Part shown: in pieces, positions 6,248 to 21,703 of the stretch
Layout of the letters: every line of letters begins with the position of its first letter
Numbering within the stretch: the first letter of the stretch is position 1
Origin: Okeania sp.
GTDB lineage: Bacteria; Cyanobacteriota; Cyanobacteriia; Cyanobacteriales; Microcoleaceae
Direction of reading: 5' to 3'
Assembly (NCBI RefSeq): GCF_035285525.1
Contig: NZ_JAYKGW010000072.1
Span: forward strand, 1-21,703
Length of the DNA: 21,703 nucleotides
Translations under genes and position numbers: made by a program
Notes under the pieces: generated by a model
Seen by the model: only the letters and a program-made list of their open reading frames with translations
Databases searched by the model: none
Told to the model about the DNA's origin: nothing

Positions 6248-6263
6248 ATTTATTTCTCCTTTT

Positions 6264-6307: not shown

Positions 6308-6313
6308 AATATT

Positions 6314-6489: not shown

Positions 6490-6659
6490 AATTACCTCTA
6501 TTGATAAACTTGAGTTTCAGTTCGTAGTTATCTGTAGGGGTTTGGTTTCCAAACCCAATAGACAGTATAAACAGTAAGCACAATAATTTCTGATGGTGCG
6601 TTAGCGACAACGTAACGCACCCTACTGGAGTGTTTCATCTAAAACTGTGCATTAGATAT

Positions 6660-7055
6660 TCTCCCTTATCTCCCTTGTCCTCCTTATCTCCCTTGTCCTC
6701 CTTATCTCCCTTATCTCCCTTGTCCTCCTTATCTACCTTGTCTCCCTTATCCTCCTTATCTCCCTTATCTCCCTTGTCCTCCTTATCTCCCTTATCTCCC
6801 TTGTCTCCCTTATCTCCCTTATCTCCCTTGTCTCCCTTATCCTCCTTATCTCCCTTATCCTCCTTGTCTCCCTTGTCCTCCTTATCTCCCTTGTCTCCCT
6901 TATCCTCCTTGTCTCCCTTATCTCCCTTATCTCCCTTATCCTCCTTATCCTCCTTGTCTCCCTTATCCTCCTTATCTCCCTTGTCTCCCTTGTCCTCCTT
7001 ATCTCCCTTGTCCTCCTTATCTCCCTTGTCCTCCTTGTCCTCCTTATCTTCCTTC
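6660..7055. repeat. Tandem array of a 9-bp unit TC(TC/CT)CCTT(A/G): 43 clean units plus 1 degenerate unit
   Basis: Units start at 6660+9n and I verified the register at 6732, 7020, 7029 and 7038. Only four unit types occur (tctccctta, tctcccttg, tcctcctta, tcctccttg), apart from one tctaccttg at 6732. The array ends 1-2 nt before the stop codon of the VOC gene (7057-7059). Confidence 0.95.
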
Positions 7056-7056
7056 T

Positions 7057-8073: not shown

Positions 8074-8302
8074 ATTTTTTATAAATTTTATGGGAATTAG
8101 TTATAATCAAGCCTTAGTTTCTTTTTGGAAGTTTCAGAAGTGTTTCTGCTCTCACAAATTAGGGAGTGGTAGCTAACAACTGATAAAGCCATAATCCCAG
8201 AGTTTGATACTACTAAAAAAATGCTTTTATCCTGTTAAACATAATTCTCTCCTTTAATTTTATTAATGTGAAATAAACATCAATAAATCCGTATATCTGT
8301 TG

Positions 8303-8716
8303 TTAGGCAAAAGGGTTAATAATTCATGTCTTCTGTGCAACCAATTGATTATGCTGCAGATATTCTGAATAGAGAATAGTGCAGTTTTGCAGCAATGCTG
8401 CCCATAAAACTAAACTCTCCCAATCAGAATCACCGTAGTTATTATTAATTTCCAAAGCATTTCAAACAGTTATAGTATCAATTGCCCATACTTAAAAATT
8501 AGTTGAAAGTTCTATGATGATTTGTTTTGCCTCTTGCTAGGTTGTTAAATTCTTTTGAGTTAATACCTTGTAAAGTTCACCCAAAATCCGGGTACTAATG
8601 CTAATATAATCAAAGCGATCGCTGACTAGCTGTCTGGCTTTTGATACTTTATATTGGGGATTTTTAGCATATAAATAAACCCAAACATTAGTATCTATCA
8701 TTACCTTATATATCAT
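8303..8716 (-). pseudogene. PIN-domain (VapC-like) toxin gene with four in-frame nonsense codons
   Basis: I translated a single 138-codon frame by hand: MIYKVMIDTNVWVYLYAKNPQYKVSKARQLVSDRFDYISISTRILGELYKVLTQKNLTT*QEAKQIIIELSTNF*VWAIDTITV*NALEINNNYGDSDWESLVLWAALLQNCTILYSEYLQHNQLVAQKT*IINPFA*. The internal stops are at 8539-8537, 8494-8492, 8464-8462 and 8326-8324. No frameshift is needed to read the whole gene. Confidence 0.7.
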
Positions 8717-8920
8717 ATAATTCTCCCCGGTTAAATTGATAGTTATCTGGCCAAGCAAAAGAATATTCGTCTACTAACTGCCAAAATCTTTCCTTGTTAT
8801 CCTGAATAACATCTGCCTCTACTAAAATAACTTTAAGTTTTTTCCCTCTAATTCTGGACTAAGTTGTTCAGTAAATATCAGATTACCATTTTGACAAGTT
8901 GCTTGTAGAACTTTGTACAT
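8706..8920 (-). pseudogene. Cognate small antitoxin gene with a 1-nt frameshift in an A-run
   Basis: The ATG at 8920 follows AGGAG. Frame 1 gives MYKVLQATCQNGNLIFTEQLSPELEGKNLKLF*. Shifting one nucleotide at gggAAAAAAc (about 8837-8846) restores KKLKVILVEADVIQDNKERFWQLVDEYSFAWPDNYQFNRGELYDI*. That stop overlaps the PIN start (ATGATATATAA). Confidence 0.6.
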
Positions 8921-9055
8921 ATTAATTTACTCCTGCCATAATTTTAATTTTCTCTAACTTTTTAGTACAGTTATAGCCTAACTAATTATTTCATATCCAT
9001 AACACAAAATATAGAAATCCTATTTTATTTGTGTAGAAAAATCCTACTAATTTTA

Positions 9056-9109
9056 GGAAAAAGGGAATAGGGAGAAGTAATTTTTTTCCCCTACTCCCTA
9101 CTCCCTATT
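9056..9109 (-). terminator. Possible intrinsic terminator after the HtrA-like gene
   Basis: On the minus strand AAUAGGGAG (9109-9101) pairs with CUCCCUAUU (9074-9066), followed by CCCUUUUUCC. The loop is long at 26 nt. Confidence 0.4.
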
Positions 9110-9111
9110 TT

Positions 9112-10326
9112 CTAATAATTCATTTGTCCGCTAACAACAAATAACTGCTTTTCTCTACCATTTCGGAGGATTTTAAACTGCAATTTTTCACCTACACCAC
9201 TATTTTCAACTTTCCTCTGTAATTGTTCTGCACTAACTATTGATTGATTATCAATTTCCACAATTACATCTCCTATTCGGATCCCCGATTTTTCTGCTGG
9301 AGTACCAGACAATACTTTAGTAACTAAAACTCCTTCTACCTCTGGCAAAATTAAAACAGAATTAGGGTCACTATTATTTTCTTCAGCAACTTCTGGAGTT
9401 AAACTAATCATCTGAATACCAACAAAAGGATGAGGTACTTGTTCTCCACGAGCTAATACATCTTTAATTTCTTTAGCTTTATTGATAGGAATAGCAAAAC
9501 CAATTCCCATAGCATCAGCTCTAATTGCCGTATTAATTCCTATTACTTCTCCCTGAGAATTTAACAACGGACCCCCAGAATTTCCAGGATTAATTGCTGC
9601 ATCAGTTTGAATAAAATCTAATCTTTTATCAGGGATTCCTACTGCCGAACTAGGGCGTTTCAAACTACTAATAATTCCTAAAGTAACAGTATTATTAAAT
9701 CCTAAAGGATTTCCTACTGCTATTGCCCAATCTCCTACTTGTACTAAATCAGAATTACCTAAAGTTGCTACTGGTAAAATTTCTCCTTTAGTATCAACTT
9801 TAACTACTGCTAAATCTGTAATTTTATCTGTTCCTTTTACTTCTCCAACAAACTTTCTACCATCATTTAAACTAACAGTAACTTTGTCAGCTTCATCTAC
9901 TACATGAGCATTGGTTAAAATTATGCCTTTGGAGTCAATAATAAAACCAGAACCTTCACCTTTTAACAATTCTTGTGAAGGTGCCTGCATCCTGAAGTTA
10001 TTATCAAAAAAACGGTCAAAAAATGGGTCTTCAAAAAAAGCATTATTTGGACGAGTAATTAATCGTTCGGTGTCAATTCTCACTACAGCTAAACCAACTT
10101 TATTAACTGCTTCAGTAACAAAGCTATTACTATTTCTAGTATTAATATTTTCTGGTATAGCTTGCAATGCTAATAACTGAGGATTTGATAATCCGGCAAA
10201 TATTCTTGAAGTTGCCATTGCTGGTGACGTAGTTAAAGAAGCCACCATAAATGTAAAAGCTACAAAAGAGGCCAAAAATTGAGCTGTGATTTTGGTAGTT
10301 ATTCGACAAAAATTTAACAATCTCAT
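9112..10326 (-). CDS. HtrA/Deg (HhoA/HhoB-like) periplasmic serine protease with a PDZ domain
   Basis: This is a 404-aa ORF with a signal-like N-terminus (..FTFMVASLTTSPAMA). The S1C catalytic motifs are TNAHVV, DLAVVKV and GNSGGPLLN. A C-terminal PDZ-like segment is present (GVLVTKVLSGTPAEKSGIRIGDVIVEIDNQ). Confidence 0.9.
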   Translation of the reverse strand: MRLLNFCRITTKITAQFLASFVAFTFMVASLTTSPAMATSRIFAGLSNPQLLALQAIPENINTRNSNSFVTEAVNKVGLAVVRIDTERLITRPNNAFFEDPFFDRFFDNNFRMQAPSQELLKGEGSGFIIDSKGIILTNAHVVDEADKVTVSLNDGRKFVGEVKGTDKITDLAVVKVDTKGEILPVATLGNSDLVQVGDWAIAVGNPLGFNNTVTLGIISSLKRPSSAVGIPDKRLDFIQTDAAINPGNSGGPLLNSQGEVIGINTAIRADAMGIGFAIPINKAKEIKDVLARGEQVPHPFVGIQMISLTPEVAEENNSDPNSVLILPEVEGVLVTKVLSGTPAEKSGIRIGDVIVEIDNQSIVSAEQLQRKVENSGVGEKLQFKILRNGREKQLFVVSGQMNY

Positions 10327-10405
10327 AGTGTTAATATTGGATTGACTAAAGTGGTAAGTTTAGTGTTATAATATCACCAATGGTACAATATTATACTATA
10401 AATTT

Positions 10406-10774
10406 ATGGTAATATCTAATCAACAAAAAAAACAGGCAACTAATCACGAAGTTCAGGAGGATTTCAATTCTGAACATCACCATCATTCTTCTAGTCATCC
10501 TCATGTTCATAGCGAAGAATCTCTACAAAGTTTAATCAATAGATTATCAAGAATTGAAGGACACGTTAGAGGAATTAAAACTATGATTAAAGATAATCGT
10601 CCTTGTCCTGATGTCTTGATACAAATAGCAGCAGTTCGTGGTGCTTTAGACCGAGTAGCTCGCATGGTTTTGGATAATCATTTATCTGATTGTATTGCTC
10701 GGGCAACTCAAGATGGAGATATTGATGTAGAAATTGCTGCTTTAAAGTCAGCTTTAGACAGATTTTTACCTTGA
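10406..10774 (+). CDS. CsoR/RcnR-family metal-sensing repressor with a His-rich N-terminus (InrS-like)
   Basis: This is a 122-aa ORF containing LINRLSRIEGHVRGIKTMI..RPCPDVLIQIAAVRGALDRVARMVL.NHLSDC, with the C...H...C ligand pattern. An N-terminal tract SEHHHHSSSHPHVHSE is present. Confidence 0.85.
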   Translation: MVISNQQKKQATNHEVQEDFNSEHHHHSSSHPHVHSEESLQSLINRLSRIEGHVRGIKTMIKDNRPCPDVLIQIAAVRGALDRVARMVLDNHLSDCIARATQDGDIDVEIAALKSALDRFLP

Positions 10775-11023
10775 GGAAGGAAAAAGTAAGTAAGAAAAAA
10801 AAGACTTCAGTTATTCAGGAGAGAAGAAATAAATATGCTAAGTAGTTGTGCAAAATTACAGCGGATTCTAAGTTTATGTTATATAAATTGTAACACAGCC
10901 TTCTAGGCTGTTATATCTGTACCAGACTAAGATGGAATCCCCTGTAATTGCACATATTTAGAAATATAAATGTATAGTATAAAAGCCAAATACACTTTTA
11001 TAAAATATAGTCAAAAAAAAATT

Positions 11024-11701
11024 ATGTGGAAAAAAATAGCTTTTTGGTTACTTTGGATAGGGTTTGGTGTTTATGCTTTTGTACTTGCTCCACCCGATCA
11101 ACCAGATACTTTAGAATTAATCCAAAAACTCTCAACAGGTGAATGGGAAAATATTAATCCTTTGATTATTTCTCTATTCAATATTATGGGAATTTGGCCG
11201 TTAATTTATAGTTGTTTATTATTCTTTGATGGTAGAGAACAAAAAGTACCAGCATGGTTATTTTCTACTTTATCATTTGGAGTCGGAGCATTTGCGATTT
11301 TACCCTATTTAGGATTGCGTAAACCTAATCCAAATTTTTATGGAAAAAAGAATCTTTGGCTTAATATATTAGACTCTCGAATTTTAGGAATTGCTTTAAC
11401 ATTAGGTACAATTTTATTACTAATATATGGTTTAAAAAATGGCGACTGGGGAGATTTTATTCAACAGTGGCAAAGTAATAGATTTATTCATGTAATGAGT
11501 CTGGATTTTTGTATGTTGTGTTTATTATTTCCTACTCTATTAGGAGATGATATGAACAGACGAGGAATGGAAAAAAATCTCTGGTATTGGATAGCATTAA
11601 TTCCACTTTTAGGTCCGTTAATTTATTTGTCTGTGCGTTCCCCTTTATTAACAACTGATATCTCTACAATATCAGAACAAAAGCAAGTTATTGCCAATTA
11701 A
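11024..11701 (+). CDS. Multi-pass membrane protein of unknown function
   Basis: I prefer the ATG at 11024 (MWKKIAFWLLWIGFGVYAFVLAPP...) to the ORF-track start at 10970. Several hydrophobic segments are present. I cannot name a family. Confidence 0.6.
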   Translation: MWKKIAFWLLWIGFGVYAFVLAPPDQPDTLELIQKLSTGEWENINPLIISLFNIMGIWPLIYSCLLFFDGREQKVPAWLFSTLSFGVGAFAILPYLGLRKPNPNFYGKKNLWLNILDSRILGIALTLGTILLLIYGLKNGDWGDFIQQWQSNRFIHVMSLDFCMLCLLFPTLLGDDMNRRGMEKNLWYWIALIPLLGPLIYLSVRSPLLTTDISTISEQKQVIAN

Positions 11702-11755
11702 TAGGAAGTTCCGAAAAACAGATAAAAACAATTTCCTTTTTGGCAGAACAACCGT

Positions 11756-11783
11756 GTAGGGACGTTCCATGGAACGTCCCTAC
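11756..11783. terminator. 28-nt perfect palindrome between convergent genes (possible bidirectional terminator or dispersed repeat)
   Basis: gtagggacgttccatggaacgtccctac lies between the stop at 11701 (+) and the stop at 11796 (-). It is the same family as the palindrome at 3077-3104. Confidence 0.5.
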
Positions 11784-11795
11784 TTCCTCTATTAT

Positions 11796-12245
11796 TTAAC
11801 CTTTTTCACATTCTCGTTTTGTCACATCATGTCTGTACCGAAACATATCCTCCAGTCGAGAGTCTACCCACCAACCTAAAAAAGATTCTGCTAACCATTC
11901 TCCAGGTAAAGAGAAAGCGATCGCATCGGTTAATCTAGTTTGACCATTTTCCTCACTAAACTGATGACGATGAGTCCAACTTGCCATTGGACCTTCTTTC
12001 TGTTCATCAGTAAACAGATGATATTGTTCATATTCTGTATGTACGGCCACCCACTTCACAGGGATTGGACCGAGCCAAATCATAAATTCTGATAAGGCCC
12101 CTATTTCCAATCCCCCTTGACGACGAATAATTTGGACTGGTTGCCAAGGTGGGGTAAGTATTTGCAGAATATCGGAACGTTCGTGGAATTTCCAAACTGT
12201 CTCCACTGGAGCATTAATTAAAGTTGAATAGCGAAAGTGCAACAT
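11796..12245 (-). CDS. SRPBCC (START/polyketide-cyclase-like) family protein
   Basis: This is a 149-aa ORF. The sequence (MLHFRYSTLINAPVETVWKFHERSDILQILTPPW...WTHRHQF...GQTRLTD) is typical of SRPBCC ligand-binding proteins. Confidence 0.8.
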   Translation of the reverse strand: MLHFRYSTLINAPVETVWKFHERSDILQILTPPWQPVQIIRRQGGLEIGALSEFMIWLGPIPVKWVAVHTEYEQYHLFTDEQKEGPMASWTHRHQFSEENGQTRLTDAIAFSLPGEWLAESFLGWWVDSRLEDMFRYRHDVTKRECEKG

Positions 12246-12821: not shown

Positions 12822-12847
12822 GGTGCGTTACATTTCATTAACGCACC
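12822..12847. repeat. ggtgcgtta...taacgcacc hairpin repeat overlapping the radical SAM stop codon
   Basis: ggtgcgttacatttcattaacgcacc has 9-bp arms. The same arm sequence recurs at 6596-6622 and, half of it, in the 12.5-12.7 kb cluster. Confidence 0.7.
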
Positions 12848-14463
12848 CTAAAAACTTCTTCCTTAGCTTCAGCTAAATGTTTTTTCAAAGTTGCCACAGG
12901 TAGAGGACCTTGAATATGATTCCAAGGCAAAGTTTGTTCTAATTCCCAATTATTAAAAACATAAAAATCTAACTCTGGCAACTTCCCATGCAATTCCTTA
13001 AAAGCTCTTTTATAACTACCTAAAGAATCTCCATAATTTCTCACCAATTCTAACAAATAAGATAACCTTCTATCCCCTCTCGAAATTAACCCTTGAATTA
13101 CCGACCATTTATAACTTTCTGGGCGAAAATCTATACCCTTTGAACGTAATTTTTTCTCCAAAAACTTCAATCTTTTTTCTGACTTATCATTTACCCCAAA
13201 CCATTGAAAAGGAGTATGAGATTTCGGCACAAAAGTGCTGCAACCTAAACTTAATCTCAACCCAGGAACAACTTTTTTCAAAGTTAACATCATCTCTACA
13301 GTCACCTCTAAATCTTCTTCCTCTTCTCCAGGTAAACCCACCATTCCATAAAATTTAATCCCTTTCAAACCACCAAGTTTAGCATTAATAGCAGCTTGAA
13401 TAATTTCCTCATTTTCTAACTTTTTATTGATAATTTTCCGGAGGCGATCGCTACCACTTTCCACAGCAATAGTAATTGACTTTGTATCTCGACTAGCTAA
13501 AATTTTTGCCAATTTTTCTGTCACTGTATTGGTTCTAACTGAGGCAATACTCAACCGAATATCATCATATTTTGCTTGGGATAAATAATCTAATAAACTT
13601 TCAAATTCTGGATGTTGAGTTACGGAAGCACCCAATAAACCTAAACGTTTAGTAACAGTTAATCCTCTTTCAATTGCTGGAATTAGAGACCCTTCTAAAC
13701 TAGCAGTTCTAAACGGTAAAGTCAGATAACTTGCCAAACAAAAACGACACATTTCGGGGCAACTTCTGACAACTTCAACCATAAAAATATTTTCCCAAGC
13801 AGCCTTTTCTGTAACCACAGTCGAAGCAGATAAAATATTACTTCGATAAGTTTGTTTTTGCACCACAGGAGGAATATCTTTATCTATAGGTTCAATAGAT
13901 TTAATCGCACCATCATTACTTTCATAAATTACTTCATAAAGACTAGGAATATAAACCCCAGGTACTTGAGCTAAATGTTTTAATTGTTCTAATTTTTCAG
14001 CAGTTCTCACTGTTTTATAATTATCAATAAAATCTGCCAATAAATTTTCCCCATCTCCCAATAAAATCACATCAAAAAAATCAGCAAAAGGTTCTGGATT
14101 AGCTGTTAAAACTGGTCCGCCACCAAATATTATGGGATAGTTTTTTCCCGAACGATTTTTAGTTCTAATCGGAATTTCTAGAGATTCTAAAATAGAGAAA
14201 ATATTGACATAATCAAGTTCCCAAGAAAGAGAAAAACCGAATAATTCTGGTTGTTGTGGCAGAGGTTCATTAATATCAGTAAATAAACGACTAACTTGTA
14301 GATCGGAACGCATTGCTAAAGTTGCCCAAACAATCTGATAACCAAGACTTGTTATTCCCACAGTATATTCATTGGGAAAAGCAAAAATAATTGGAATAGC
14401 ATTAGATTCAGGAATAGCTGGAGTAAAGAGTAAATTTTCAGTATTAAATAAATTATCAGACAT
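12838..14463 (-). CDS. Large radical SAM protein with an N-terminal B12-binding-like region
   Basis: This is a 541-aa ORF. The CX3CX2C cluster motif is VVRSCPEMCRFCLASY. The remainder looks like the conserved ~530-aa cyanobacterial radical SAM family (GGGPVLTANPEP, FYGMVGLPGEEEEDL). Confidence 0.85.
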   Translation of the reverse strand: MSDNLFNTENLLFTPAIPESNAIPIIFAFPNEYTVGITSLGYQIVWATLAMRSDLQVSRLFTDINEPLPQQPELFGFSLSWELDYVNIFSILESLEIPIRTKNRSGKNYPIIFGGGPVLTANPEPFADFFDVILLGDGENLLADFIDNYKTVRTAEKLEQLKHLAQVPGVYIPSLYEVIYESNDGAIKSIEPIDKDIPPVVQKQTYRSNILSASTVVTEKAAWENIFMVEVVRSCPEMCRFCLASYLTLPFRTASLEGSLIPAIERGLTVTKRLGLLGASVTQHPEFESLLDYLSQAKYDDIRLSIASVRTNTVTEKLAKILASRDTKSITIAVESGSDRLRKIINKKLENEEIIQAAINAKLGGLKGIKFYGMVGLPGEEEEDLEVTVEMMLTLKKVVPGLRLSLGCSTFVPKSHTPFQWFGVNDKSEKRLKFLEKKLRSKGIDFRPESYKWSVIQGLISRGDRRLSYLLELVRNYGDSLGSYKRAFKELHGKLPELDFYVFNNWELEQTLPWNHIQGPLPVATLKKHLAEAKEEVFRVR

Positions 14464-14496: not shown

Positions 14497-14612
14497 CGCA
14501 AAGAAACCCGGTTTCTCCTAGAAACCGGGTTTCTGGGTTTCCGGGTATTGTAATCCAATCGTAGGGGTTGGCTCTCCAAACCCAATCGTAGGGGTTGGCT
14601 CTCCAAACCCAA
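14497..14612. repeat. Hairpin repeat (gaaacccggtttc type) followed by a 27-bp tandem repeat of about 2.3 copies
   Basis: The hairpin region is gcaaagaaacccggtttctcctagaaaccgggtttct at about 14497-14535. The unit ccaatcgtaggggttggctctccaaac occurs at 14555 and 14582, and a partial third copy follows. Confidence 0.8.
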
Positions 14613-14615
14613 TAG

Positions 14616-14870
14616 CTATTTATATTTAAGTTTAAAAAATAAAATTGGTGAAGCTAAACTCAAGGTCGCAATGTTAGTAAAAATTATCGGTAAATTGTTA
14701 ATAATAATGCCATAAATTATCCATAACAATACACCAGAACAAAAAATAGCAAACATTTCTAAAGAGATGTCTTTTGTCGAACGAGTCCGCCAAGTTTTGA
14801 TAACTTGAGGTAAAAATGAAATAGTTGTGAAAGTACCTGCTAATAGTCCTAAAACTGTTACTAAGTTCAT
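14616..14870 (-). CDS. SemiSWEET (PQ-loop) family transporter
   Basis: I prefer the ATG at 14870 to the TTG at 14882. The product is 84 aa with three hydrophobic helices and the PQ motif (TISFLPQVIKTW). Confidence 0.8.
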   Translation of the reverse strand: MNLVTVLGLLAGTFTTISFLPQVIKTWRTRSTKDISLEMFAIFCSGVLLWIIYGIIINNLPIIFTNIATLSLASPILFFKLKYK

Positions 14871-15002
14871 AAGAAATACCAATAATTGTGATTACTCTAT
14901 AAAATTCTGATAGAGTTTGGAAAATACAGCAGATTACACCTTTTTCATTTTAGTTATTCAGTTATCAGTACCTCCTGGAATAAGGAGGCTTTAAATACAG
15001 AA

Positions 15003-16113
15003 TATTCTTTTTTTATCCTCCTAAAAAAAAGGAGGCTTCAGACCTAAATTTTTCGGTGAAATAAAGCAACGCGGGCAAGATGCCTGCACTAGAAAAATTT
15101 AATTATATCACCTCAGCTTATCTTAGATTAACAGGACTTACGCAAAGAAACCGGGTTTTTAGGATAAATCGTTGTTTTTAACAATAAACATTGACGAAAA
15201 ACCCGGTTTCTAGGTTCGTTTGTGTAAGTCCTAATTAATTTTTTAGATATTTTTTAGCCCAAGCATATCTCCTTTCATCTTTTTTCAGCAAATATTCTAT
15301 AATTTCTCGTCGCTTATTCTTTTTGCTAGTCTCTTGAACTAATCGCTTAATTTCTTTATCAATATCTTCCGTCTTAGCTCCTCTTTTTCGTGCCTCTTCA
15401 AACCAATAATCTCCATCTCCATATTCTCCTAGACCATAACAAATAGCCCCCATTAAAGTACAAGGATGATGACTTTTAGAATCAATTTTATGAGCTTGTA
15501 AAGCCAGATGTTTGCCTTCATTTAATTGGCTAACATCTCTAAAAGCAGCACCTCTAGTTACAAGTATTCTAGCCTTAAGGTCTTTATCTTTTAATTTCTC
15601 TAAATTGACTTTACCTGTGATTTCTAATGCTTTTAATGGTTTCTTTGCCTTGCGCCAATAACTACTAATTTTAGGGATTAGCCATTTATTTTTAGTTCTC
15701 TTAAATTCTTCCTCAAAAAAATCAGCCTCAATCTGATAATAAGTAATGGCAATCTTACTACCAAGATACAGCAAATTCTCAGTTGTTAACTGAGTAAACA
15801 TTAATTTGTCTAATCGCTCTCCTTTATCTAGTCTGCTAAGAATATTGTAGAAAGGATCGAATTTTAATTTCTGGTCTGTAGCTAAATATTTATCTCGGAG
15901 TCTTTTCCAATCTTTATCTTTAGCTATTTTAACAATTTTATTCAAACCATGTGACTTTAACCAATCAATATCTACTTCTATTAACTGAGAAAATTGTTCT
16001 ACTTTTTGGAGAATTTCATACAAATTACTATCAGGTGATGAATCTTCAAACTCAGTAACTTTGTATTTTTTCTTGAGTCGAGTAAACTCTATTTTGTGTT
16101 TTTGTTTATCCGC
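15003..16113. repeat. Segmental duplication, copy 1 (gene tail plus 3' flank; includes the MITE)
   Basis: This segment aligns with 17001-18018 across ~880 nt of coding sequence plus ~115 nt of 3' flank. It contains an identical 73-nt run (15677-15749 = 17570-17642). Confidence 0.85.
15125..15232. mobile_element. ~108-bp MITE inserted 2 nt downstream of the 558-aa gene's stop codon
   Basis: The inverted ends are aggacttacgcaaagaaaccgggttt (15133-) and aaacccggtttc...tttgtgtaagtcct (-15232). The paralogous flank at 17121-17130 (atctt|aattaatt) is an uninterrupted empty site. Confidence 0.7.
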
Positions 16114-16911
16114 AATAGAAAATGTCTCAGTTAGTTTATTTTTTTGTAACCAATCTAACTCTGATTTTTCCAAAATAGTTTCTGTCTCTAGTTTTTTCAA
16201 TATTGAAAATAATTTACTAGAGATAGATTTATCCCAATATTTAGTAGCTTGATACTTATCTTTTAGTTCTGCAAATTTAGCTTCATCCTCTCTTTGTTTT
16301 TGTTTCTTACGCTCCGAATAAATTTCTAGAGTTTCCAAGAAACCATTATTTGATAACCAATTAGATTCTTGCTTATTTAATGTCTCCGCTGAGTCAATTT
16401 TTTTCAGAATACGAAACAATTTATCCGGGAAAAATCTTGATATGTTAGTAGCACGGTATTTAATTTTTAATTTGGCAAATTCTTGGATTTGATTAGCGAT
16501 CGCTAAAGTTTCCTTTAAATTATAATCTTTCAGTAATTTAATTTCTGAATCAGTTAATATATTTTCACTATCAAGTTTCAAAAGTAGCGGATGTAAAAAA
16601 TAAAATCCAAAATTTTTGGGTACTTTGTATCTTGTTTTGAGTTCCAAGAAGTCATATCCTAATCTTTTCAGCTCAGTTTTCTTGTATTGCTTTAAGTTCA
16701 GCTCTAAGTTAATTAGTTTGATAGTTTCAAAAAGTTGATTTGCTTCTAAATATTGAAATTCTATGTCTGTAATTGAAATACCTAAATCAACTCTTCTAAG
16801 TATAAGATATAGAAAGCTTAAAGGAGATGAATTTTGATATTTAGTTGCCTGATACTTAGACTTGAGAAGAGAAAAATGTTGCACCTGAATTTCATGTTCG
16901 TCTTTACCCAT
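15235..16911 (-). CDS. Helical repeat protein of unknown family (about six ~60-aa repeats plus a TPR-like C-terminal cap)
   Basis: This is a 558-aa ORF. A repeated pattern F..LK.KY(x7-12)L(F/Y).IL.K(x6-8)L...(E/D)..WL...(x)L.ET occurs at about aa 13, 88, 145, 213, 275 and 333. The C-terminus has two TPR-like 34-mers (ARILVTRGAAFRDVSQLNEGKHLALQAHKIDSKS / HHPCTLMGAICYGLGEYGDGDYWFEEARKRGAKT). Confidence 0.7.
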   Translation of the reverse strand: MGKDEHEIQVQHFSLLKSKYQATKYQNSSPLSFLYLILRRVDLGISITDIEFQYLEANQLFETIKLINLELNLKQYKKTELKRLGYDFLELKTRYKVPKNFGFYFLHPLLLKLDSENILTDSEIKLLKDYNLKETLAIANQIQEFAKLKIKYRATNISRFFPDKLFRILKKIDSAETLNKQESNWLSNNGFLETLEIYSERKKQKQREDEAKFAELKDKYQATKYWDKSISSKLFSILKKLETETILEKSELDWLQKNKLTETFSIADKQKHKIEFTRLKKKYKVTEFEDSSPDSNLYEILQKVEQFSQLIEVDIDWLKSHGLNKIVKIAKDKDWKRLRDKYLATDQKLKFDPFYNILSRLDKGERLDKLMFTQLTTENLLYLGSKIAITYYQIEADFFEEEFKRTKNKWLIPKISSYWRKAKKPLKALEITGKVNLEKLKDKDLKARILVTRGAAFRDVSQLNEGKHLALQAHKIDSKSHHPCTLMGAICYGLGEYGDGDYWFEEARKRGAKTEDIDKEIKRLVQETSKKNKRREIIEYLLKKDERRYAWAKKYLKN

Positions 16912-17000: not shown

Positions 17001-18018
17001 TATTCCTCTTTTTTTATCCTCCTAAAAACAAGGATACTTCAGACCTAAACTTTTGGGTGAAATACACCCACACAGACAAAATACCCGCACTCGAAATATT
17101 TAATTATCTCACCTAAGCTGATCTTAATTAATTTTTTAGATATTCTCTAGCCCAAGCATATTTCCTGTCATCTTTTTTCAGTAGATATTCTATAATTTCT
17201 TTTCGCTTATTATTGTTGCTAGTATCTTGAACTAATCGCTTAATTTCTCGATCAATGTCTTTTATATAAGCTCCTCTTTTTCGCGCCTCTTCAAACCAAT
17301 AATCTCCATCTTGATATTCTCCTAGAGCAAAACAAGTAGTCCCCAATAAAGTACAAGGATGATGACTTTTATAATCAATTTTATGAGCTTGTAAAGCCAG
17401 ATTTTTGGCTTCATTTAAGTTGTAATTATCCCTAAAAGCACCACCTCTAGTTACAAGTATTCTAGCCTTAAGGTCTTGATCCTTTAATTTCTCTAAATTT
17501 ACTTTACTTGTAATTTCTAATGCTTTTAATGGTTCCTCTGCTTTGCACCAATAACTACTAATTTTAGGAATTAGCCATTTATTTTTAGTTCTCTTAAATT
17601 CTTCCTCAAAAAAATCAGCCTCAATCTGATAATAAGTAATGGTAATATTGCTGCTAGGAGTTAGCAAATTCTCAGTTGTTAACTGAGTAAACATTAATTT
17701 GTCTAATTGCTCTCCTCGATCTAGTTTACTAAGAATATTGTAGAAAGGATCGAATTTTAATTTCCGGTCTGTAGCTACATATTTATCTTGGAGTCTTATC
17801 CAATCTGTTTCCAAATATTTGTCTTCAGCTACTTTAATAATTTTAGTCAAATTATATGACTTTAACCAATCAATATCTGCCTTTGTTAGCCGCTCAACTA
17901 CCTCTATTTTTTGGAGAATTTTATACAAATTACTATCAGGTGATGAATCTTCAAATTCAGTCACTTTGTATTTTTCCTTGAGTCTAGTAAACTCTATTTT
18001 ATATTTTTGTTTCTCCGC
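17001..18018. repeat. Segmental duplication, copy 2 (forms the C-terminal third of the P450 fusion ORF plus its 3' flank)
   Basis: See 15003-16113. This copy lacks the MITE. Confidence 0.85.
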
Positions 18019-19416
18019 AATATAGTCTCTTTTTTGTTTTTGTTTCTCCGCAGAAGGCAATATTTCTTCCCCCTGCATACGTTTTCCAGTCATCACCATT
18101 TTTATTCCACCCGCAGGAGATAAAGTTATACTACGACGTTCTGTTTTAACTGGTTGTTTTTCTGCTAAAGCCAAATTATAGCGTCTGAGAATAGTTGCTA
18201 ATACCAGTTTCATTTCAAACATAGCAAACGCTGCTCCAATGCAACGCCGATTACTACCGCCAAAAGGTAAAAATTCGTAAGCAGAATATTGACGTTCTAA
18301 AAATCGTTCTGGTTTAAATTTCTTTGGTTCAGGATACAAATCTTCTCGGTGATGAGTTAAATAAATACAGGGAACTAAACCAGTTCCCGCTGGGTATTCT
18401 TGACCCATTATTGTGATCGGCGATTTTGTTTCTCGTGGAGATGTAATCAATACCACTGGATAAATACGCAGGGATTCACTGCAAACTGCATTCAGATAGG
18501 GTAGTTTCATGATTTCCATTGGGTTGGTATCGTCCCCAATAGTTGCTAATTCTTGTAATAGCTTGTCATAAATTTCTGACTGATGGTGACTCCAGTAAAA
18601 CGCCCAGGCTAAAGCAGTTGCAGTGGTTTCATGTCCTGCCAATAGTAATGTCATCAACTCATCCTGCAATTCTATATCGCTCATACCTTCCCCCGCTTCA
18701 TCCCGTGCTAATAAAAGCATTGTCAAAATATCAGAACGTTCGGGGTCTAAATTTTGACGACGTTCAGAAATTTCTGCACACAGTAACTCGTAAATCTCTT
18801 CCCTTTCTTTGGTAAATTTTCCCCAGGGACTCCAAGTACCTAGACCTATTTGTAGAAACTCGAAAAATAACATACTTGCTTTCGCCGGAGAACTCAATGA
18901 TTCCATAAGTGAACCCAAAAGTCGCTCTAATCTAGAGTACCTTTCTCCTTCATATAAACCGAAAACTGCTTGTAATATTACTTTTAAAGATATCTCTTGA
19001 GTAGATTTTCTCATCGAAAATACCCTATCCACTTGCCACTTGCTAGCTACCTGTTCAGTGATATTACAAATTAACTCTCCATAAGTTTGCATTCGTTCCC
19101 CATGAAAAGGTGGCATCAATAATTGACGTTGACGTTGATGAGGAGTACCATCTAATAATAATAATGAATAATCTCCCAAAAGTGGCTGCAAAAACTTATT
19201 ACCAGAACCACACTCAAACTGTTTTGGGTTAGTCTTGAAAATTTCCTCAATGGCCTTGGGATGGCTGATAAATACCATTGGGTAATTCAAGTTTATTTCA
19301 AATGAGTCTCCATATTGCCTTGCACATTTTTCCATAAATGTCAAGGGTTCAGTCACCCATTGGAAGAGTTGAATCAAACGTGGAGCTTTTGGACCAGGCA
19401 ATTGTGTCATAGTCAT
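17128..19416 (-). CDS. Cytochrome P450 (resembles the Nostocales CYP110 type) fused in frame to a ~296-aa helical-repeat/TPR-like module
   Basis: This is a 762-aa ORF. The P450 motifs are AGHETT (aa 260-265), ESLR (aa 314-317) and FLPFGGSNRRCIG, with Cys392 encoded at 18243-18241. The P450 fold ends near aa 446 (..GGIKMVMTGKR). Residues 467-762 are roughly 80-90% identical (by eye) to aa 267-558 of the neighbouring ORF. Confidence 0.8.
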   Translation of the reverse strand: MTMTQLPGPKAPRLIQLFQWVTEPLTFMEKCARQYGDSFEINLNYPMVFISHPKAIEEIFKTNPKQFECGSGNKFLQPLLGDYSLLLLDGTPHQRQRQLLMPPFHGERMQTYGELICNITEQVASKWQVDRVFSMRKSTQEISLKVILQAVFGLYEGERYSRLERLLGSLMESLSSPAKASMLFFEFLQIGLGTWSPWGKFTKEREEIYELLCAEISERRQNLDPERSDILTMLLLARDEAGEGMSDIELQDELMTLLLAGHETTATALAWAFYWSHHQSEIYDKLLQELATIGDDTNPMEIMKLPYLNAVCSESLRIYPVVLITSPRETKSPITIMGQEYPAGTGLVPCIYLTHHREDLYPEPKKFKPERFLERQYSAYEFLPFGGSNRRCIGAAFAMFEMKLVLATILRRYNLALAEKQPVKTERRSITLSPAGGIKMVMTGKRMQGEEILPSAEKQKQKRDYIAEKQKYKIEFTRLKEKYKVTEFEDSSPDSNLYKILQKIEVVERLTKADIDWLKSYNLTKIIKVAEDKYLETDWIRLQDKYVATDRKLKFDPFYNILSKLDRGEQLDKLMFTQLTTENLLTPSSNITITYYQIEADFFEEEFKRTKNKWLIPKISSYWCKAEEPLKALEITSKVNLEKLKDQDLKARILVTRGGAFRDNYNLNEAKNLALQAHKIDYKSHHPCTLLGTTCFALGEYQDGDYWFEEARKRGAYIKDIDREIKRLVQDTSNNNKRKEIIEYLLKKDDRKYAWAREYLKN

Positions 19417-19926
19417 ATTCTTAATAAGGAAGGGAACAGGGAATAGTTTTGACTATTTGTCACGGACAAATTTTCTGATAGTTAGGGTTTGCTGAAAAAG
19501 TATATATGGGTTAGGGTAGTCTTAAAAGTGAATGGCCATTTGCCATGAAGAATATAAAAGATTATTTATTATAGTGCAATACAGTTTCCTAGGAAATGCT
19601 GCACAAACAGATAATATCAAACCCGCTGGTTACGGTTCCCCATAAATTGGAGAATAAGGTTCTACCATTCCTAGTATGTAGAGGGTAAGGTTCCCGAAAA
19701 ATTGGAGACCAAACCCCTATAGGAAATGAATTTTAACGATACTACCGGATTTGATATAATACCAAAACTCATAAGGTATCTACCTATAAGACTCATGTAC
19801 TTTCCTTCCTTCTGCCTTCTTCCTCCTTCCTTCTTCCTTAACTAAAAGGAATTAACATCGATCCCCGAAGATGTTAAATTGTTCTTTAGCTAAAATAATT
19901 AAAGAGAAAAATATAGGAAAATTGCG

Positions 19927-21703
19927 ATGACTGCAACAACCCCAAAACCAACCACAGTCCCAGATTTTTGCGAAGGTATCCAATACTTCGGAGAAGCTTG
20001 GCCTGATTTTGAGACCCACGGCCAAACACCAGCAATACCAGAAGGTAGTAAAGCGATCGCCTCACCAAGCGATCCGACTGGAGTATATCAAACCCTCCTC
20101 TACGCTGACGCTCTCCGTTATTTAATGCTACAAGTAACAGGCAGCAAAGCATCAGGACACCCAGGCGGTTTTGCTAGTCAAGCTGAAGCTTATGCAGCTT
20201 TAGTAATGTTAGGCTATAAAAACATTCTCACAGAAGTCGGACACCACGCCCCCGGATTTTATAGCGCCGTATTTCTAGATCGCTCCCTAGAAGATATGGA
20301 AATCTTCACAGTCCAACAAATGCGTAGTCGCTTCCGGGAAATGCACGGACTCCTCGGACACCTATCCGGTTATATCCCTGGGTTGCTCAACCCCGCTGGT
20401 CCACTAGGTCAAGGGCAACATTTCGCCATGGCAGCAGCATTATTACATCGCGATACCCTATTTCCTTTCACCATGGGAGACGGTGGCATGGGAGAACCCT
20501 ATCCAGTCAGCAGTATGATGCACTTTAACACTGCCTATCCTGATGTCACTAACTTTTTACCAGTATTAGTGTGGAATGGTTATAGTCAAGAACACCATAG
20601 CATGGTTTCCACTAAAACCAGTGCAGAAATGATTGCTTATTGGAAAGGCAACGGTTTTGCTGAAGTCATCTTAGTAGATGCTAAAGATTTCGACGACAAA
20701 AACCAACCAGGAGACTATGTTGATAGCAGCGCCTTCTCCTTAGAAAAACGTTTGGAGTTTACCAAAGCAGTATTAGAAAATATTGACAAAGCTGCAAAAT
20801 CTGCACTCGGTGGCAAACTCACCATTTTTATTATCAAACAACTCAAAGGTGCAGGGGTTCATGCTAGGGGTTCTAAGTCTCATAACCTTTATCCCAAAGA
20901 CACCCTCGACAGTCCCCAAATTATAAATGCTCTCCAAGAACGCGCCCTACCAGTAGCAGCTTGGGAGTTAGTACGACAAAATTGCGAACGTGCTGGTGGC
21001 GGCCCTGCTGCTAAAACTGTTGTCACTGAATTTGAGTACCCACTAGCAGACTTAGGTGAACTACCTTTAGAAGAATATGCTGTTGGTGGCGATCGTAAAG
21101 TTGCCACAACTGCAATGGGAGAATTAATAGCTTATGTTGGTCAAAAAGACCCTCATTTCCTAGTTACCAATGCAGATGGTAACGCTGCATCAGGTATTAA
21201 TAATATTAACCAAGCATTGAAAATTATTCACCCCACCACAGATGACATTTATTTCCAGGGTCCCAAAGGTCAGGTCTACGAACCTTTGAGCGAAGATGCT
21301 TGTGCTGGTATGGCAGCGGGTTTAGCATTAATGGGAGCGCGGACAGTTTGGTGTTCTTATGAATCTTTTGCGATTAACGGTGTACCTATTTGGCAAACTG
21401 TTACCCAAGCAATGGCAGAATTACGTCATGCTACTCCTTCCACTATTACCTTATTTACTGCCGGAGCATTAGAACAGGGGCGCAATGGTTGGACGCACCA
21501 ACGTCCGGAAATTGAAGCTTATTTTGCAGCGATGCTCCGGAATGGAAATGTGTTCGCTCTGTTCCCACCCGATGCGAATAGTATTCAAGTTTGTTATGAC
21601 TGGGCGTTGACTACTAAAAATAAAGGTGTTACTATTACTGCTAGTAAGTCGCCTTTACCTATTAGAACTACTTTTGAACAAGCAAGACAAGGGTTGCAGG
21701 ATG
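19927..21703 (+). CDS. TPP-dependent enzyme of the phosphoketolase/transketolase superfamily (divergent phosphoketolase-like), 3' end outside the window
   Basis: The ATG is at 19927 and the frame is open to the window end. It is not in the ORF track because it has no stop in the window. The N-terminal part has transketolase-like motifs (YADALRYLMLQVTGSKASGHPGGF, MGDGGMGEP). The middle part aligns by eye with phosphoketolase (GQVYEPLSEDACAG...WCSYESFAI...GRNGWTHQRPE versus XFP GQVVEQLSEH...WSSYESFVH...DHNGFSHQDPG). Confidence 0.75.
   Translation, partial: MTATTPKPTTVPDFCEGIQYFGEAWPDFETHGQTPAIPEGSKAIASPSDPTGVYQTLLYADALRYLMLQVTGSKASGHPGGFASQAEAYAALVMLGYKNILTEVGHHAPGFYSAVFLDRSLEDMEIFTVQQMRSRFREMHGLLGHLSGYIPGLLNPAGPLGQGQHFAMAAALLHRDTLFPFTMGDGGMGEPYPVSSMMHFNTAYPDVTNFLPVLVWNGYSQEHHSMVSTKTSAEMIAYWKGNGFAEVILVDAKDFDDKNQPGDYVDSSAFSLEKRLEFTKAVLENIDKAAKSALGGKLTIFIIKQLKGAGVHARGSKSHNLYPKDTLDSPQIINALQERALPVAAWELVRQNCERAGGGPAAKTVVTEFEYPLADLGELPLEEYAVGGDRKVATTAMGELIAYVGQKDPHFLVTNADGNAASGINNINQALKIIHPTTDDIYFQGPKGQVYEPLSEDACAGMAAGLALMGARTVWCSYESFAINGVPIWQTVTQAMAELRHATPSTITLFTAGALEQGRNGWTHQRPEIEAYFAAMLRNGNVFALFPPDANSIQVCYDWALTTKNKGVTITASKSPLPIRTTFEQARQGLQD

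What the first reader, a model, noticed from the sequence alone, without database searches (positions are those of the whole stretch)
15235..16911. 558-aa protein built from about six degenerate ~60-aa repeats that I cannot assign to any named family
The translation shows a recurring module: (F).(L/E)LK.KY(K/Q/R)(A/V)T...(S)...L(F/Y).IL(K/R)K(x6-8)L...(E/D)(I/L).WL..(N/H).L.ET..IA. Examples are FAELKDKYQATKYWDKSISSKLFSILKKLETETILEKSELDWLQKNKLTETFSIA and FTRLKKKYKVTEFEDSSPDSNLYEILQKVEQFSQLIEVDIDWLKSHGLNKIVKIA.

The repeats are followed by a conserved block (YYQIEADFFEEEFKRTKNKWLIPKISSYW) and two TPR-like 34-mers. The composition is strongly Lys/Glu/Leu rich and predicted to be all-helical. I see no signal peptide, TM segment or catalytic motif.

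The two C-terminal repeats and the cap are exactly the part that has been copied onto the P450.
Basis: seen in the sequence. Interest (0 to 1): 0.5.

Follow-up and report, generated by a model that had tools for sequence, protein, structure and literature searches.

The report
Unnamed helical repeat protein with TPR tail
This gene encodes an all-helical protein made of six copies of a 58-residue repeat that matches no named family or solved structure, followed by a TPR docking domain; it belongs to an uncharacterised family found mostly in filamentous cyanobacteria, and its function is still unknown.

Summary
The ORF is on the minus strand (15235-16911, 558 aa). It carries six ~58-aa repeats with strong statistical support, then a conserved cap, two TPRs and a closing helical hairpin.

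The repeat has no significant hit in Pfam, NCBIfam, PADLOC, PHROGs or PDB sequences. A confident AlphaFold model of three repeats (pLDDT 91.7) has no Foldseek neighbour in the PDB or among viral models. Only the C-terminal domain belongs to a known family (TPR).

The protein belongs to a conserved family. There were 185 confirmed loci among 185,579 species genomes, and the best 80 are all cyanobacteria, nearly all filamentous. Members have 5-12 repeats, and individual repeats are orthologous between Okeania, Nostoc and Microcoleus.

A minimal core of one repeat, the cap and the TPR domain also occurs with other N-terminal parts. These include a UvrD/PcrA-like Tudor domain, other repeats, and here a P450. 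A large branch sits on proteobacterial plasmids and genomic islands.

My best reading is a cytoplasmic scaffold or adaptor: the TPR domain docks a conserved partner and the repeats form a rigid rod. This is inferred, not shown. The P450 fusion is unique to this contig. Interest is moderate: a new repeat type with no known function.

The parts
15235..16911 (-). Whole ORF: 558 aa plus stop codon. Six 58-aa repeats, then cap, TPR domain and C-terminal hairpin.
   Evidence: ORF list and translation. A 100% identical 'hypothetical protein [Okeania sp.]' is in the protein collection. AlphaFold model pLDDT 88.4, all helical.
16714..16881 (-). Repeat R1 (residues 11-66)
   Evidence: Repeat HMM domain E = 5e-23. 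57-62% identical to R1 of the Nostoc, Microcoleus and Kamptonema homologues.
16495..16653 (-). Repeat R2 (residues 87-139), with a shortened loop
   Evidence: Repeat HMM domain E = 1e-14. Alignment of the units.
16321..16485 (-). Repeat R3 (residues 143-197)
   Evidence: Repeat HMM domain E = 2e-18. Part of the three-repeat model with pLDDT 91.7.
16111..16284 (-). Repeat R4 (residues 210-267), the unit closest to the consensus
   Evidence: Repeat HMM domain E = 9e-24. Three-repeat model.
15922..16089 (-). Repeat R5 (residues 275-330). The homology to the P450 tail begins just upstream of it.
   Evidence: Repeat HMM domain E = 7e-23. Alignment to the P450 tail.
15772..15915 (-). Repeat R6 (residues 333-380), a divergent last unit that leads into the cap
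   Evidence: Repeat HMM domain E = 2e-10. 38-49% identical to the last unit of the homologues.
15616..15756 (-). Cap (residues 386-432): YYQIEADFFEEEF...WLIPKISSYWRKA..PLKALEIT, three helices carrying the invariant W-R pair
   Evidence: Helices 386-406, 409-421 and 425-432. Invariant columns A8, W31 and R32 in A6.
15385..15585 (-). Two TPR units (residues 443-509) with the invariant motif (T/V)TRG(G/A)AxRD and L.GA....G...F..A...G
   Evidence: Family profile against consensus TPR, E = 4e-5. Foldseek local match to CTPR proteins. TPR_2 above Pfam's cut-off in homologue P0008, and TPR_2 at E <= 0.001 in 41 of 57 relatives. Invariant columns.
15238..15372 (-). C-terminal helical hairpin and closing helix (residues 514-558) with the conserved motif YLL.KD..RY.WA..YL
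   Evidence: Helices 514-527, 531-544 and 550-555. Conserved L153, Y161 and W163 in A6.
17131..18015 (-). Paralogous tail of the upstream gene (its residues 468-762): R5, R6, cap and TPR domain fused behind a P450
   Evidence: 79% identical over 291 aligned codons. Alignment.
18076..19416 (-). CYP110-like cytochrome P450 domain of the fusion gene (residues 1-447); only about 13 C-terminal codons of the normal P450 are missing
   Evidence: PF00067 E = 1.5e-81. Nucleotide homology to a stand-alone Okeania P450 ends at 18076. All database relatives are stand-alone proteins of 430-470 aa.
12838..14463 (-). Downstream radical SAM gene (TIGR03960-like, B12-binding type), the most frequently conserved neighbour of the family
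   Evidence: Pfam and NCBIfam hits. Found on the same strand next to the family gene in 37 of 80 cyanobacterial loci.
11796..12245 (-). SRPBCC / polyketide-cyclase-like gene that follows the radical SAM gene in the conserved gene order
   Evidence: PF03364. Present in 30 of 80 loci.

Best explanation
What it is. The gene encodes a soluble, cytoplasmic, all-helical tandem-repeat protein of an uncharacterised family that is mostly confined to filamentous cyanobacteria.

Architecture (shown). There are six copies of a ~58-residue unit. Each unit is one long helix, a ~12-residue loop carrying 'DSSPxS', and two short helices. The long helix of each unit runs on from the previous unit, so neighbouring units are held rigidly. 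After the repeats come a three-helix cap, two TPRs and a closing hairpin.

Conserved core (shown). One repeat plus the cap plus the TPR domain, about 230 residues, is the constant part of a wider superfamily. The N-terminal part varies between members.

How it most likely works (inferred). The C-terminal TPR domain is a docking site for a conserved partner. Its invariant polar residues (W-R in the cap, TRGGAxRD in the first TPR helix) would bind that partner. The repeat array is an elongated scaffold or spacer. It offers several related but non-identical surfaces, each kept individually in evolution.

In relatives the same core carries other 'heads': a Tudor-like domain, other repeats, and in this contig a P450. 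That pattern suggests the core delivers whatever is attached to it to a common target.
For: Reality and order of the repeats.

Structure. The full model has pLDDT 88.4. The three-repeat model has pLDDT 91.7 and pTM 0.72, which indicates a fixed geometry between units.

The TPR domain is supported by sequence profile and by fold. Invariant residues of the C-terminal domain.

The family is conserved. There were 547 hits at E <= 1e-3; the 120 listed have E <= 7e-142, nearly all over the full length. There were 185 confirmed loci in species genomes, and the best 80 are all cyanobacteria.

Repeats are positionally orthologous across orders: 43-62% identity on the diagonal against 23-44% among this protein's own repeats. 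So each unit has its own conserved identity.

The same core sits behind variable N-termini.
- Single-repeat proteins of ~300-360 aa.
- Their N-terminal domain matches the UvrD/PcrA Tudor domain (E = 2.2e-4 and 3.4e-4).
- P0223 and P0226 carry a different repeat array.
- The P450 fusion in this window.

Cytoplasmic location: no TM segment in the hydropathy scan. I ran no signal-peptide predictor.
Against: No binding partner is known or predicted, and nothing here measures binding.

Gene neighbourhoods are not consistent enough to name a pathway.
- Radical SAM and SRPBCC genes in 37 and 30 of 80 loci.
- aroC upstream and crtW downstream in Nostocales.
- Between cpcE-like and cpcF-like genes in Microcoleus.
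- Unrelated genes elsewhere.

The gene evolves fast for a housekeeping scaffold. dN/dS is 0.55 against 0.07-0.22 for its neighbours.

Proteobacterial relatives ride on plasmids and islands. A simple 'cell-architecture scaffold' reading does not predict that.

'Scaffold' is also the default reading for any TPR or helical-repeat protein, so it is weakly informative.
Confidence: 0.5

Rival explanations
1. Mobile-element conflict or maintenance factor. On this reading the repeat-cap-TPR core is a stand-alone cargo function of plasmids and genomic islands, such as defence, anti-defence or plasmid establishment. The cyanobacterial multi-repeat proteins would be domesticated or still-active versions.
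For: tblastn finds the core on 31 proteobacterial plasmid records, 21 of them conjugative or mobilizable.

Contexts include repA or repB, type I and type II restriction-modification systems, toxin-antitoxin pairs and IS elements.

A Pseudomonas copy sits in an island with integrase, AlpA and YagK-like genes. One single-repeat relative lies near a Prim-Pol primase. Another lies next to HicAB and PIN genes.

The proteobacterial branch is large: 830 hits.

The gene evolves fast (dN/dS 0.55). Okeania loci hold tandem partial copies.
Against: There is no match to any PADLOC or PHROGs model. There are no relatives in phage genomes or viral contigs.

The cyanobacterial genes are chromosomal. They keep the same gene order in Okeania, its Microcoleaceae relative and Nostocales, and their repeats are positionally orthologous. 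That fits long vertical inheritance. No partner gene recurs.
Confidence: 0.17
2. Filament-associated structural protein. On this reading it is a cytoskeleton-like, self-assembling helical protein with a role tied to the multicellular, filamentous lifestyle, comparable to coiled-coil-rich proteins and to the TPR protein All4981 of Anabaena.
For: The best 80 genomic loci are all cyanobacteria and almost all filamentous: Nostocales, Microcoleus, Okeania, Coleofasciculus, Planktothrix, Oscillatoria.

A distant relative is in the filamentous Candidatus Vecturithrix granuli.

The protein is elongated and all-helical, with long connecting helices of 22-34 residues.

There is a precedent: a ~650-aa TPR protein, All4981, polymerises and localises to septa (PMC7002697).
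Against: Relatives of the core exist in unicellular Proteobacteria on plasmids.

All4981 is described as made of readily detected canonical TPRs. That is not the case for the repeat region here. I could not obtain its sequence to compare.

No self-association evidence exists. A few loci come from MAGs labelled Chroococcales or Waterburya.
Confidence: 0.15
3. Modular nucleic-acid-binding or transcription-associated repeat protein. On this reading each three-helix unit contacts DNA or RNA, as in PPR, TALE, mTERF or Pumilio arrays, or the protein docks on the transcription machinery.
For: Single-repeat relatives start with a domain matching the UvrD/PcrA C-terminal Tudor domain. From my own knowledge, that domain is those helicases' RNA-polymerase interaction domain.

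Two lysines in 'LKxKY' are conserved in at least 90% of units.

A 20-residue stretch, 'S..S.LYpILKKLE', resembles the recognition-helix region of a PadR winged-helix protein (weak PadR hits).

This protein's pI is 9.45.
Against: The family's median pI is 6.0 (5th-95th percentile 5.5-8.8), so a basic charge is not a family trait.

The PadR similarity is short and not significant (E = 0.073).

The three-repeat model has no Foldseek match to any PPR, TALE, mTERF, Pumilio or helix-turn-helix structure.

The protein in the window has no Tudor domain.
Confidence: 0.08
4. Artefact. On this reading the apparent periodicity is a by-product of biased Lys/Glu/Leu composition in an AT-rich genome, or the ORF is not a real gene.
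For: The region has the lowest G+C content of the window (0.28). Composition is strongly biased.
Against: Composition-preserving shuffles never approach the observed scores.

Hundreds of homologues of similar length keep the same units in the same order.

AlphaFold confidence is high.
Confidence: 0.01

Closest known systems
Tetratricopeptide repeat (TPR) proteins, e.g. consensus CTPR proteins (PDB 7obi, 8cqp) and TPR adaptor domains
   Same: The C-terminal ~170 residues are TPR-like. They contain two 34-residue helix-turn-helix units with the G/A/P pattern, flanked by helical hairpins. This is seen in the sequence profile (E = 4e-5) and the fold (rmsd 2.5 over ~120 columns). Relatives reach Pfam's TPR_2 cut-off. 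The likely role, docking a partner protein, is the same.
   Different: Only about 30% of the protein is TPR. The six N-terminal units are 58 residues long with three helices and a long loop. They match no TPR model and are unrelated to the protein's own TPR profile (hhalign 0.4%). The invariant W-R and TRGGAxRD motifs are, to my knowledge, not part of the TPR consensus.
Other helical tandem-repeat scaffolds (HEAT/ARM, Sel1-like, PPR, spectrin, oomycete WY/LWY effector modules)
   Same: The general design is shared: tandem small helical units joined into an elongated, rigid array. The unit size (~58 aa) and the conserved aromatic positions are reminiscent of WY-type modules.
   Different: No sequence relationship was detected. 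RXLR_WY scored E = 0.9-5, and no HEAT, Sel1 or PPR hit appeared. No structural match was found: Foldseek against the PDB gave four hits, all with E >= 5.5. The resemblance is one of design only.
All4981 of Anabaena sp. PCC 7120 (filament-forming TPR protein; PMC7002697)
   Same: A protein of ~650 aa with TPRs, reported as absent from the unicellular Synechocystis. It is helical and was picked up in a screen for coiled-coil-rich proteins.
   Different: All4981 is described as built from canonical TPRs that domain searches detect reliably, and as co-transcribed with all4982 and all4983. Here only the C-terminus is TPR, and the conserved neighbours differ. I did not have the All4981 sequence to compare directly.
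UvrD/PcrA C-terminal Tudor domain (PDB 6yi2, 7egs, 5dma)
   Same: The N-terminal domain of the single-repeat relatives, with consensus V.H..FG.G.I..V.....V.F, matches this domain.
   Different: The domain is absent from the protein in this window. In the relatives it is N-terminal and is followed by a charged coiled coil, not attached to a helicase.

Membership tests
TPR superfamily (C-terminal domain only) | 34-residue helix-turn-helix units that match TPR profile models | tested here: inconclusive
   The window protein itself has no Pfam TPR hit at E <= 1. Its paralogous tail has TPR_2 at E = 0.64. Homologues do match: P0008 TPR_2 at 29.4 bits against a cut-off of 27, and 41 of 57 relatives with TPR_2 at E <= 0.001, best 1.4e-10. 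The family profile hits consensus TPR proteins at E = 4e-5.
TPR superfamily (C-terminal domain only) | Right-handed superhelix of antiparallel helix pairs that superposes on solved TPR structures | tested here: met
   Foldseek local matches of the model to consensus TPR proteins: 7obi and 8cqp, 119-122 columns, rmsd 2.5-2.9, target TM 0.69-0.71. E-values are only ~1e-2, because the rest of the query does not match.
TPR / HEAT / Sel1 / PPR or any other Pfam repeat (N-terminal 58-aa units) | A significant match of the repeat region to the family's profile | tested here: not met
   No significant hit in the repeat region for this protein or for ten homologues. All sub-threshold hits are scattered and inconsistent. 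The repeat profile against the PDB gave a best E of 0.073. hhalign against the protein's own TPR domain gave 0.4%.
Any solved fold (N-terminal repeats) | Structural superposition with a solved or predicted viral structure | tested here: not met
   Three-repeat model with pLDDT 91.7 and pTM 0.72. Against the PDB: 4 hits, all E >= 5.5. Against BFVD: 29 hits, all E >= 3. AlphaFold DB was not available.
PadR-type winged helix-turn-helix | A full winged-HTH domain match (~75 residues) | tested here: not met
   Only 20-25 residues align ('S..S.LYpILKKLE'), at E = 0.073 against PDB 3l7w. The Pfam PadR hits are below the cut-off (25.6 and 24.7 bits against 27).
Known anti-phage defence systems and phage protein families | A match to a PADLOC or PHROGs model | tested here: not met
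   No hit for this protein or for six diverse relatives.
This unnamed family (multi-repeat, cyanobacterial) | At least five 58-aa units, then the cap with W-R, then TRG(G/A)AxRD, then a C-terminal Y.W motif, at full length | tested here: met
   The 120 listed homologues have E <= 7e-142, nearly all covering 92-100% of the query. They carry 5-12 units each, most often 7-8. The invariant columns are present in this protein, except that the first T of the motif is V in the Okeania protein.
Coiled-coil-rich or filament-forming proteins (e.g. All4981) | Self-polymerisation in vitro or in vivo | not testable with these tools
   This needs purified protein or fluorescent fusions. Only the literature description was available.

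The most novel reading that the evidence does not exclude
The 58-residue unit is a new helical-repeat fold. The repeat-cap-TPR core is a portable docking module shared by filamentous cyanobacteria and proteobacterial plasmids and islands. It brings interchangeable N-terminal heads (a Tudor-like domain, long repeat arrays, occasionally an enzyme such as a P450) to one conserved cellular target, possibly the transcription or replication machinery. The fast-evolving cyanobacterial arrays would then be multivalent versions of a factor born on mobile elements.
Probability: 0.25. Interest if true: 0.65.

Novelty: new variant of a known kind. Interest (0 to 1): 0.45.

Why it matters
The family is conserved mostly in filamentous cyanobacteria, is absent from every curated library I could search, and has a confidently predicted fold with no solved counterpart. 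That makes it a clean target for structure determination and for a new family definition.

Two aspects could lead somewhere. First, it is largely restricted to filamentous cyanobacteria, where few lineage-specific cytoplasmic proteins are understood. Second, the same core occurs on proteobacterial plasmids and islands next to restriction-modification, toxin-antitoxin and replication genes. Many such cargo genes turn out to act in conflicts between mobile elements and their hosts.

The variable N-terminal heads offer testable leads to the partner, in particular the Tudor-like domain and the P450 fusion. If the protein is only a generic scaffold, the result is a routine addition to the catalogue of repeat families.

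Tried and rejected
1. Named families. Pfam, NCBIfam, PADLOC and PHROGs scans of the protein and of relatives gave only TPR hits at the C-terminus. A precomputed 'PF26404' tag on three Nostoc homologues could not be resolved. That model is not in the local Pfam copy and nothing comparable scored.

2. PDB by sequence, with the single protein, the family profile and the repeat profile. The repeats had no relatives.

3. Fold searches of the full model and of a three-repeat fragment. Only the TPR region matched.

4. The idea that the repeat is a stretched TPR. Rejected by hhalign.

5. A conserved operon. The only recurrent neighbours are a TIGR03960-like radical SAM gene and an SRPBCC gene. The order varies even among close Okeania relatives, and other lineages have unrelated contexts. 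No pathway assignment was made.

6. The P450 as a functional clue. No other P450 fusion exists among 5.8 billion proteins, and the 762-aa product itself is not on record. Orthologous P450s stand alone at another locus. I therefore treat the fusion as a lineage-specific accident, or possibly an assembly join.

7. Identifying an Anabaena PCC 7120 orthologue through guessed locus tags around crtW. The tags belong to other genes. All4981 appears to be a different, canonical TPR protein.

8. Phage origin. No relatives in phage genomes or viral contigs.

9. Rfam, tRNA, promoter and terminator scans around the gene were uninformative.
Full report
**1. The observation**

The window has an intact 558-codon ORF at 15235-16911, on the minus strand. 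A motif search finds L[KR]x[KR]Y[KQR][AV]T six times.

Pairwise local alignment scores exceed 500 composition-preserving shuffles by z = 5.7-15.3 among R1-R5. R6 is weaker, linked mainly through R1 and R3.

I built a 58-position HMM from 824 units of other proteins, leaving this protein out. It scores 327 bits in six domains on the real sequence and at most 6.6 bits on 200 shuffles.

The units lie at residues 11-66, 87-139, 143-197, 210-267, 275-330 and 333-380. The periodicity is therefore real and is not a composition effect, even though the region is the most AT-rich of the window and the protein is 15% Lys and 13% Leu.

**2. Anatomy**

An AlphaFold2 model built on 40 homologues is confident (pLDDT 88.4) and entirely helical. 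Each unit has three parts:
- a long helix that begins in the last residues of the preceding unit and runs through 'F..LK.KY';
- a loop of about 12 residues ('xATxYxDSSPxS');
- two short helices ('LYxILKKLD' and 'ExExxWLxxN').

A separate model of R3-R5 has pLDDT 91.7 and pTM 0.72. Neighbouring units are therefore predicted in a fixed relative geometry, not as beads on a string.

After R6 come three further elements:
- a three-helix cap (residues 386-432);
- two TPR units (443-509);
- a helical hairpin with a closing helix (514-558).

There is no hydrophobic segment that could span a membrane. I did not run a signal-peptide predictor.

**3. What is known and what is not**

The repeat region matches nothing in Pfam or NCBIfam, for this protein or for homologues. 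It matches nothing in PADLOC or PHROGs.

PDB sequence searches with the protein or with a 41-unit profile also found no relative. The best hit was E = 0.073 over 20 residues of a PadR protein.

The three-repeat model has no structural neighbour. Foldseek gave four PDB hits, all with E >= 5.5, and nothing below E = 3 among viral models. Profile-profile comparison of the repeat with the protein's own C-terminal domain gives 0.4% probability, so the unit is not a recognisable TPR derivative.

The C-terminal domain, by contrast, is TPR-like.
- The family profile hits consensus TPR proteins at E = 4e-5.
- Foldseek superposes ~120 residues on CTPR structures at rmsd 2.5.
- Relatives reach Pfam's TPR_2 threshold.

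It was tested and not met.

**4. The family**

The protein is identical to a 'hypothetical protein [Okeania sp.]'. It has 547 relatives at E <= 1e-3. The 120 listed are mostly full-length proteins of ~590-700 aa with E <= 7e-142 and 36-77% identity. The named ones come from Nostoc, Microcoleus, Kamptonema, Tolypothrix, Coleofasciculus and others.

They carry 5-12 repeat units, most often 7-8. The extra units and half-units are inserted between R5 and the last unit.

A scan of one genome per species (185,579 genomes) with the motif [LF][TV]TRG[GA]A[FLY]RD found 185 confirmed loci. The best 80 are all cyanobacteria, nearly all filamentous.

Repeats are positionally orthologous. Each unit of the Okeania protein is most similar to the unit at the same position in the Nostoc, Microcoleus and Kamptonema proteins. 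Identity is 43-62% there, against 23-44% among the protein's own units. The array therefore appears older than the split of these lineages, and each unit keeps its own identity.

**5. The wider superfamily**

An exhaustive HMM search with the repeat profile over 1.84 billion representative proteins gave only 269 clusters at E <= 1e-3. Besides the multi-repeat proteins there is a class of ~300-360-aa proteins with a single unit.

Alignment shows that they share the same cap and TPR domain. The invariant residues are W-R, T-R-G-x-A-x-R-D, L-x-G-A, G...F..A...G and Y-x-W.

The N-terminal parts vary.
- In the single-unit class the N-terminus matches the C-terminal Tudor domain of UvrD/PcrA helicases (PDB 6yi2 at E = 2.2e-4, 7egs at 3.4e-4; one Pfam PcrA_UvrD_tudor hit). 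A charged coiled coil follows it.
- Other members put a different ~95-residue repeat array in front of the core (P0223, P0226).
- Still others iterate half-unit-plus-cap blocks (P0185 from Candidatus Vecturithrix granuli).

A tblastn search of plasmids found the core on 31 proteobacterial records: Aeromonas, Acinetobacter, Vibrio, Cupriavidus, Shewanella and others. One of these as a query recovers 830 relatives, the named ones from Beta- and Gammaproteobacteria. Their N-termini contain degenerate copies of the same unit.

Their contexts are typical of mobile-element cargo:
- next to repA or repB, restriction-modification systems, toxin-antitoxin pairs and IS elements on plasmids;
- in a Pseudomonas island with integrase, AlpA and YagK-like genes;
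- near a Prim-Pol primase.

None was found in phage genomes or viral contigs.

**6. Genomic context in cyanobacteria**

Clustering the neighbours of the 80 loci shows one recurrent arrangement:
- family gene, then a ~545-aa TIGR03960-like B12-type radical SAM gene (37 of 80 loci);
- then a 149-aa SRPBCC gene (30 of 80), all on the same strand;
- in Nostocales, aroC upstream and crtW downstream.

The window has this order too, with a SemiSWEET gene inserted.

The arrangement is loose, however.
- In two close relatives the gene sits on the other side of the radical SAM gene, or between it and the SemiSWEET gene.
- Other Okeania genomes hold several tandem partial copies.
- In Microcoleus one paralogue lies between cpcE-like and cpcF-like genes.
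- Kamptonema and other lineages have unrelated neighbours.

I draw no pathway conclusion from this.

**7. Evolutionary rate**

Against the Okeania SIO1I7 orthologue the gene has dN/dS = 0.55 (dS 0.22). The adjacent radical SAM gene has 0.15 (dS 0.46), the SRPBCC gene 0.07 and the P450 0.22. The protein evolves several times faster than its neighbours. That could reflect weak constraint on surface residues of a scaffold, or diversifying pressure.

**8. The P450 fusion**

The upstream gene (17128-19416) is a CYP110-like P450. Its homology to stand-alone Okeania P450s runs to about 13 codons before their stop. It then continues in frame into R5, R6, cap and TPR domain.

This tail is 79% identical to the gene studied here. 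It is equally close (80-82%) to orthologues in other Okeania. It therefore derives from an older paralogue, not from a recent copy of this gene.

No other such fusion exists in a 5.8-billion-protein collection, and the 762-aa product itself is not on record. All relatives are stand-alone P450s, and the orthologue in Okeania SIO1I7 sits at another locus.

The fusion fits the superfamily's 'variable head plus constant core' pattern. It is still a singleton. I cannot exclude an assembly join, because the reads were not available.

**9. Interpretation**

Shown:
- a new 58-residue three-helix repeat;
- a TPR-like C-terminal domain with invariant polar motifs;
- a conserved cyanobacterial family with ancient, individually conserved units;
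- a portable one-repeat-plus-TPR core with variable N-termini;
- a branch on proteobacterial mobile elements.

Inferred: the protein is a cytoplasmic scaffold or adaptor. Its TPR domain docks a conserved partner and its repeats form a rigid multivalent rod (confidence about 0.5).

The rivals each have some support but no decisive evidence:
- a mobile-element conflict or maintenance factor (0.17);
- a filament-associated structural protein (0.15);
- a nucleic-acid- or transcription-associated repeat protein (0.08).

An artefact is excluded.

**10. Verdict**

The finding is correct and modestly interesting. It is a new variant of a known kind, namely helical tandem-repeat proteins with a TPR domain. 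The repeat type is unnamed and structurally unmatched, and the function is unknown.

Noticed in passing
window 17128-19416 (minus strand): A CYP110-like P450 is fused in frame to R5, R6, cap and TPR domain of a paralogue of the studied gene. No other such fusion, and not even this 762-aa product, is in the 5.8-billion-protein collection. Orthologous P450s are stand-alone proteins of 457-459 aa at another locus.
   Followed up: partly
L017 3070-6510 and L019 3046-6543 (Okeania sp. SIO2B3 and KiyG1): The orthologous loci hold three to four consecutive ORFs that each match parts of the family protein. These are tandem partial copies or a fragmented gene, so the repeat-rich locus is prone to recombination in Okeania.
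   Followed up: partly
L005 and ten other Microcoleus loci (e.g. L063, L066, L072): In Microcoleus one family paralogue sits on the same strand between a cpcE-like and a cpcF-like HEAT-repeat gene, downstream of cpcB, cpcA and linker genes.
   Followed up: no
L012 (Scytonema sp. NIES-4073), 4074-11092: A single-repeat relative (Tudor-like domain, one repeat, TPR domain) lies 3-6 kb from two P450 genes and directly next to HicAB and PIN toxin-antitoxin genes. The nearby P450s may be a coincidence, given the fusion in the window.
   Followed up: no
window 15235-16911 compared with L018 4792-6510: The gene has dN/dS = 0.55 and an unusually low dS (0.22), against dS of 0.46-0.60 for the flanking radical SAM, SRPBCC and P450 genes in the same genome pair. 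This could reflect codon-usage constraint or gene conversion between paralogues.
   Followed up: partly
window 794-1380: A 126-bp tandem repeat of 4.2 copies at 92% identity, also readable with a period of 252 bp. The period corresponds to 42 residues and probably encodes a TPR-type repeat gene near the contig end.
   Followed up: no
window 6660-7054: A long microsatellite-like array with a CCTTATCTC-type unit (periods 18, 27 and 45 bp, about 22 copies of the 18-mer). It overlaps the 145-aa ORF at 6630-7067 (+), which has only a spurious low-complexity Pfam hit.
   Followed up: no
window 14555-14613: An exact 27-bp tandem repeat (2.2 copies) in the spacer between the radical SAM gene and the SemiSWEET gene.
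   Followed up: no
window 3071-3105 and 11750-11784; L016 9781-9815: A ~35-bp element occurs twice in the window. It occurs again, 94-97% identical, in intergenic DNA downstream of the stand-alone P450 of Okeania sp. SIO1I7. It is probably a small dispersed repeat of this genus.
   Followed up: no
window 19417-21703: There are 2.3 kb upstream of the P450 fusion with no ORF of 90 aa or more and no Rfam or tRNA hit, and the G+C content rises to 0.46. In Okeania SIO1I7 a 392-aa TPR gene lies at the equivalent position. No similarity to it was found here.
   Followed up: partly
window 14616-14882 (minus strand): An 88-aa SemiSWEET transporter gene lies between the family gene and the radical SAM gene. 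Its position relative to the family gene differs among the three closest relatives.
   Followed up: partly
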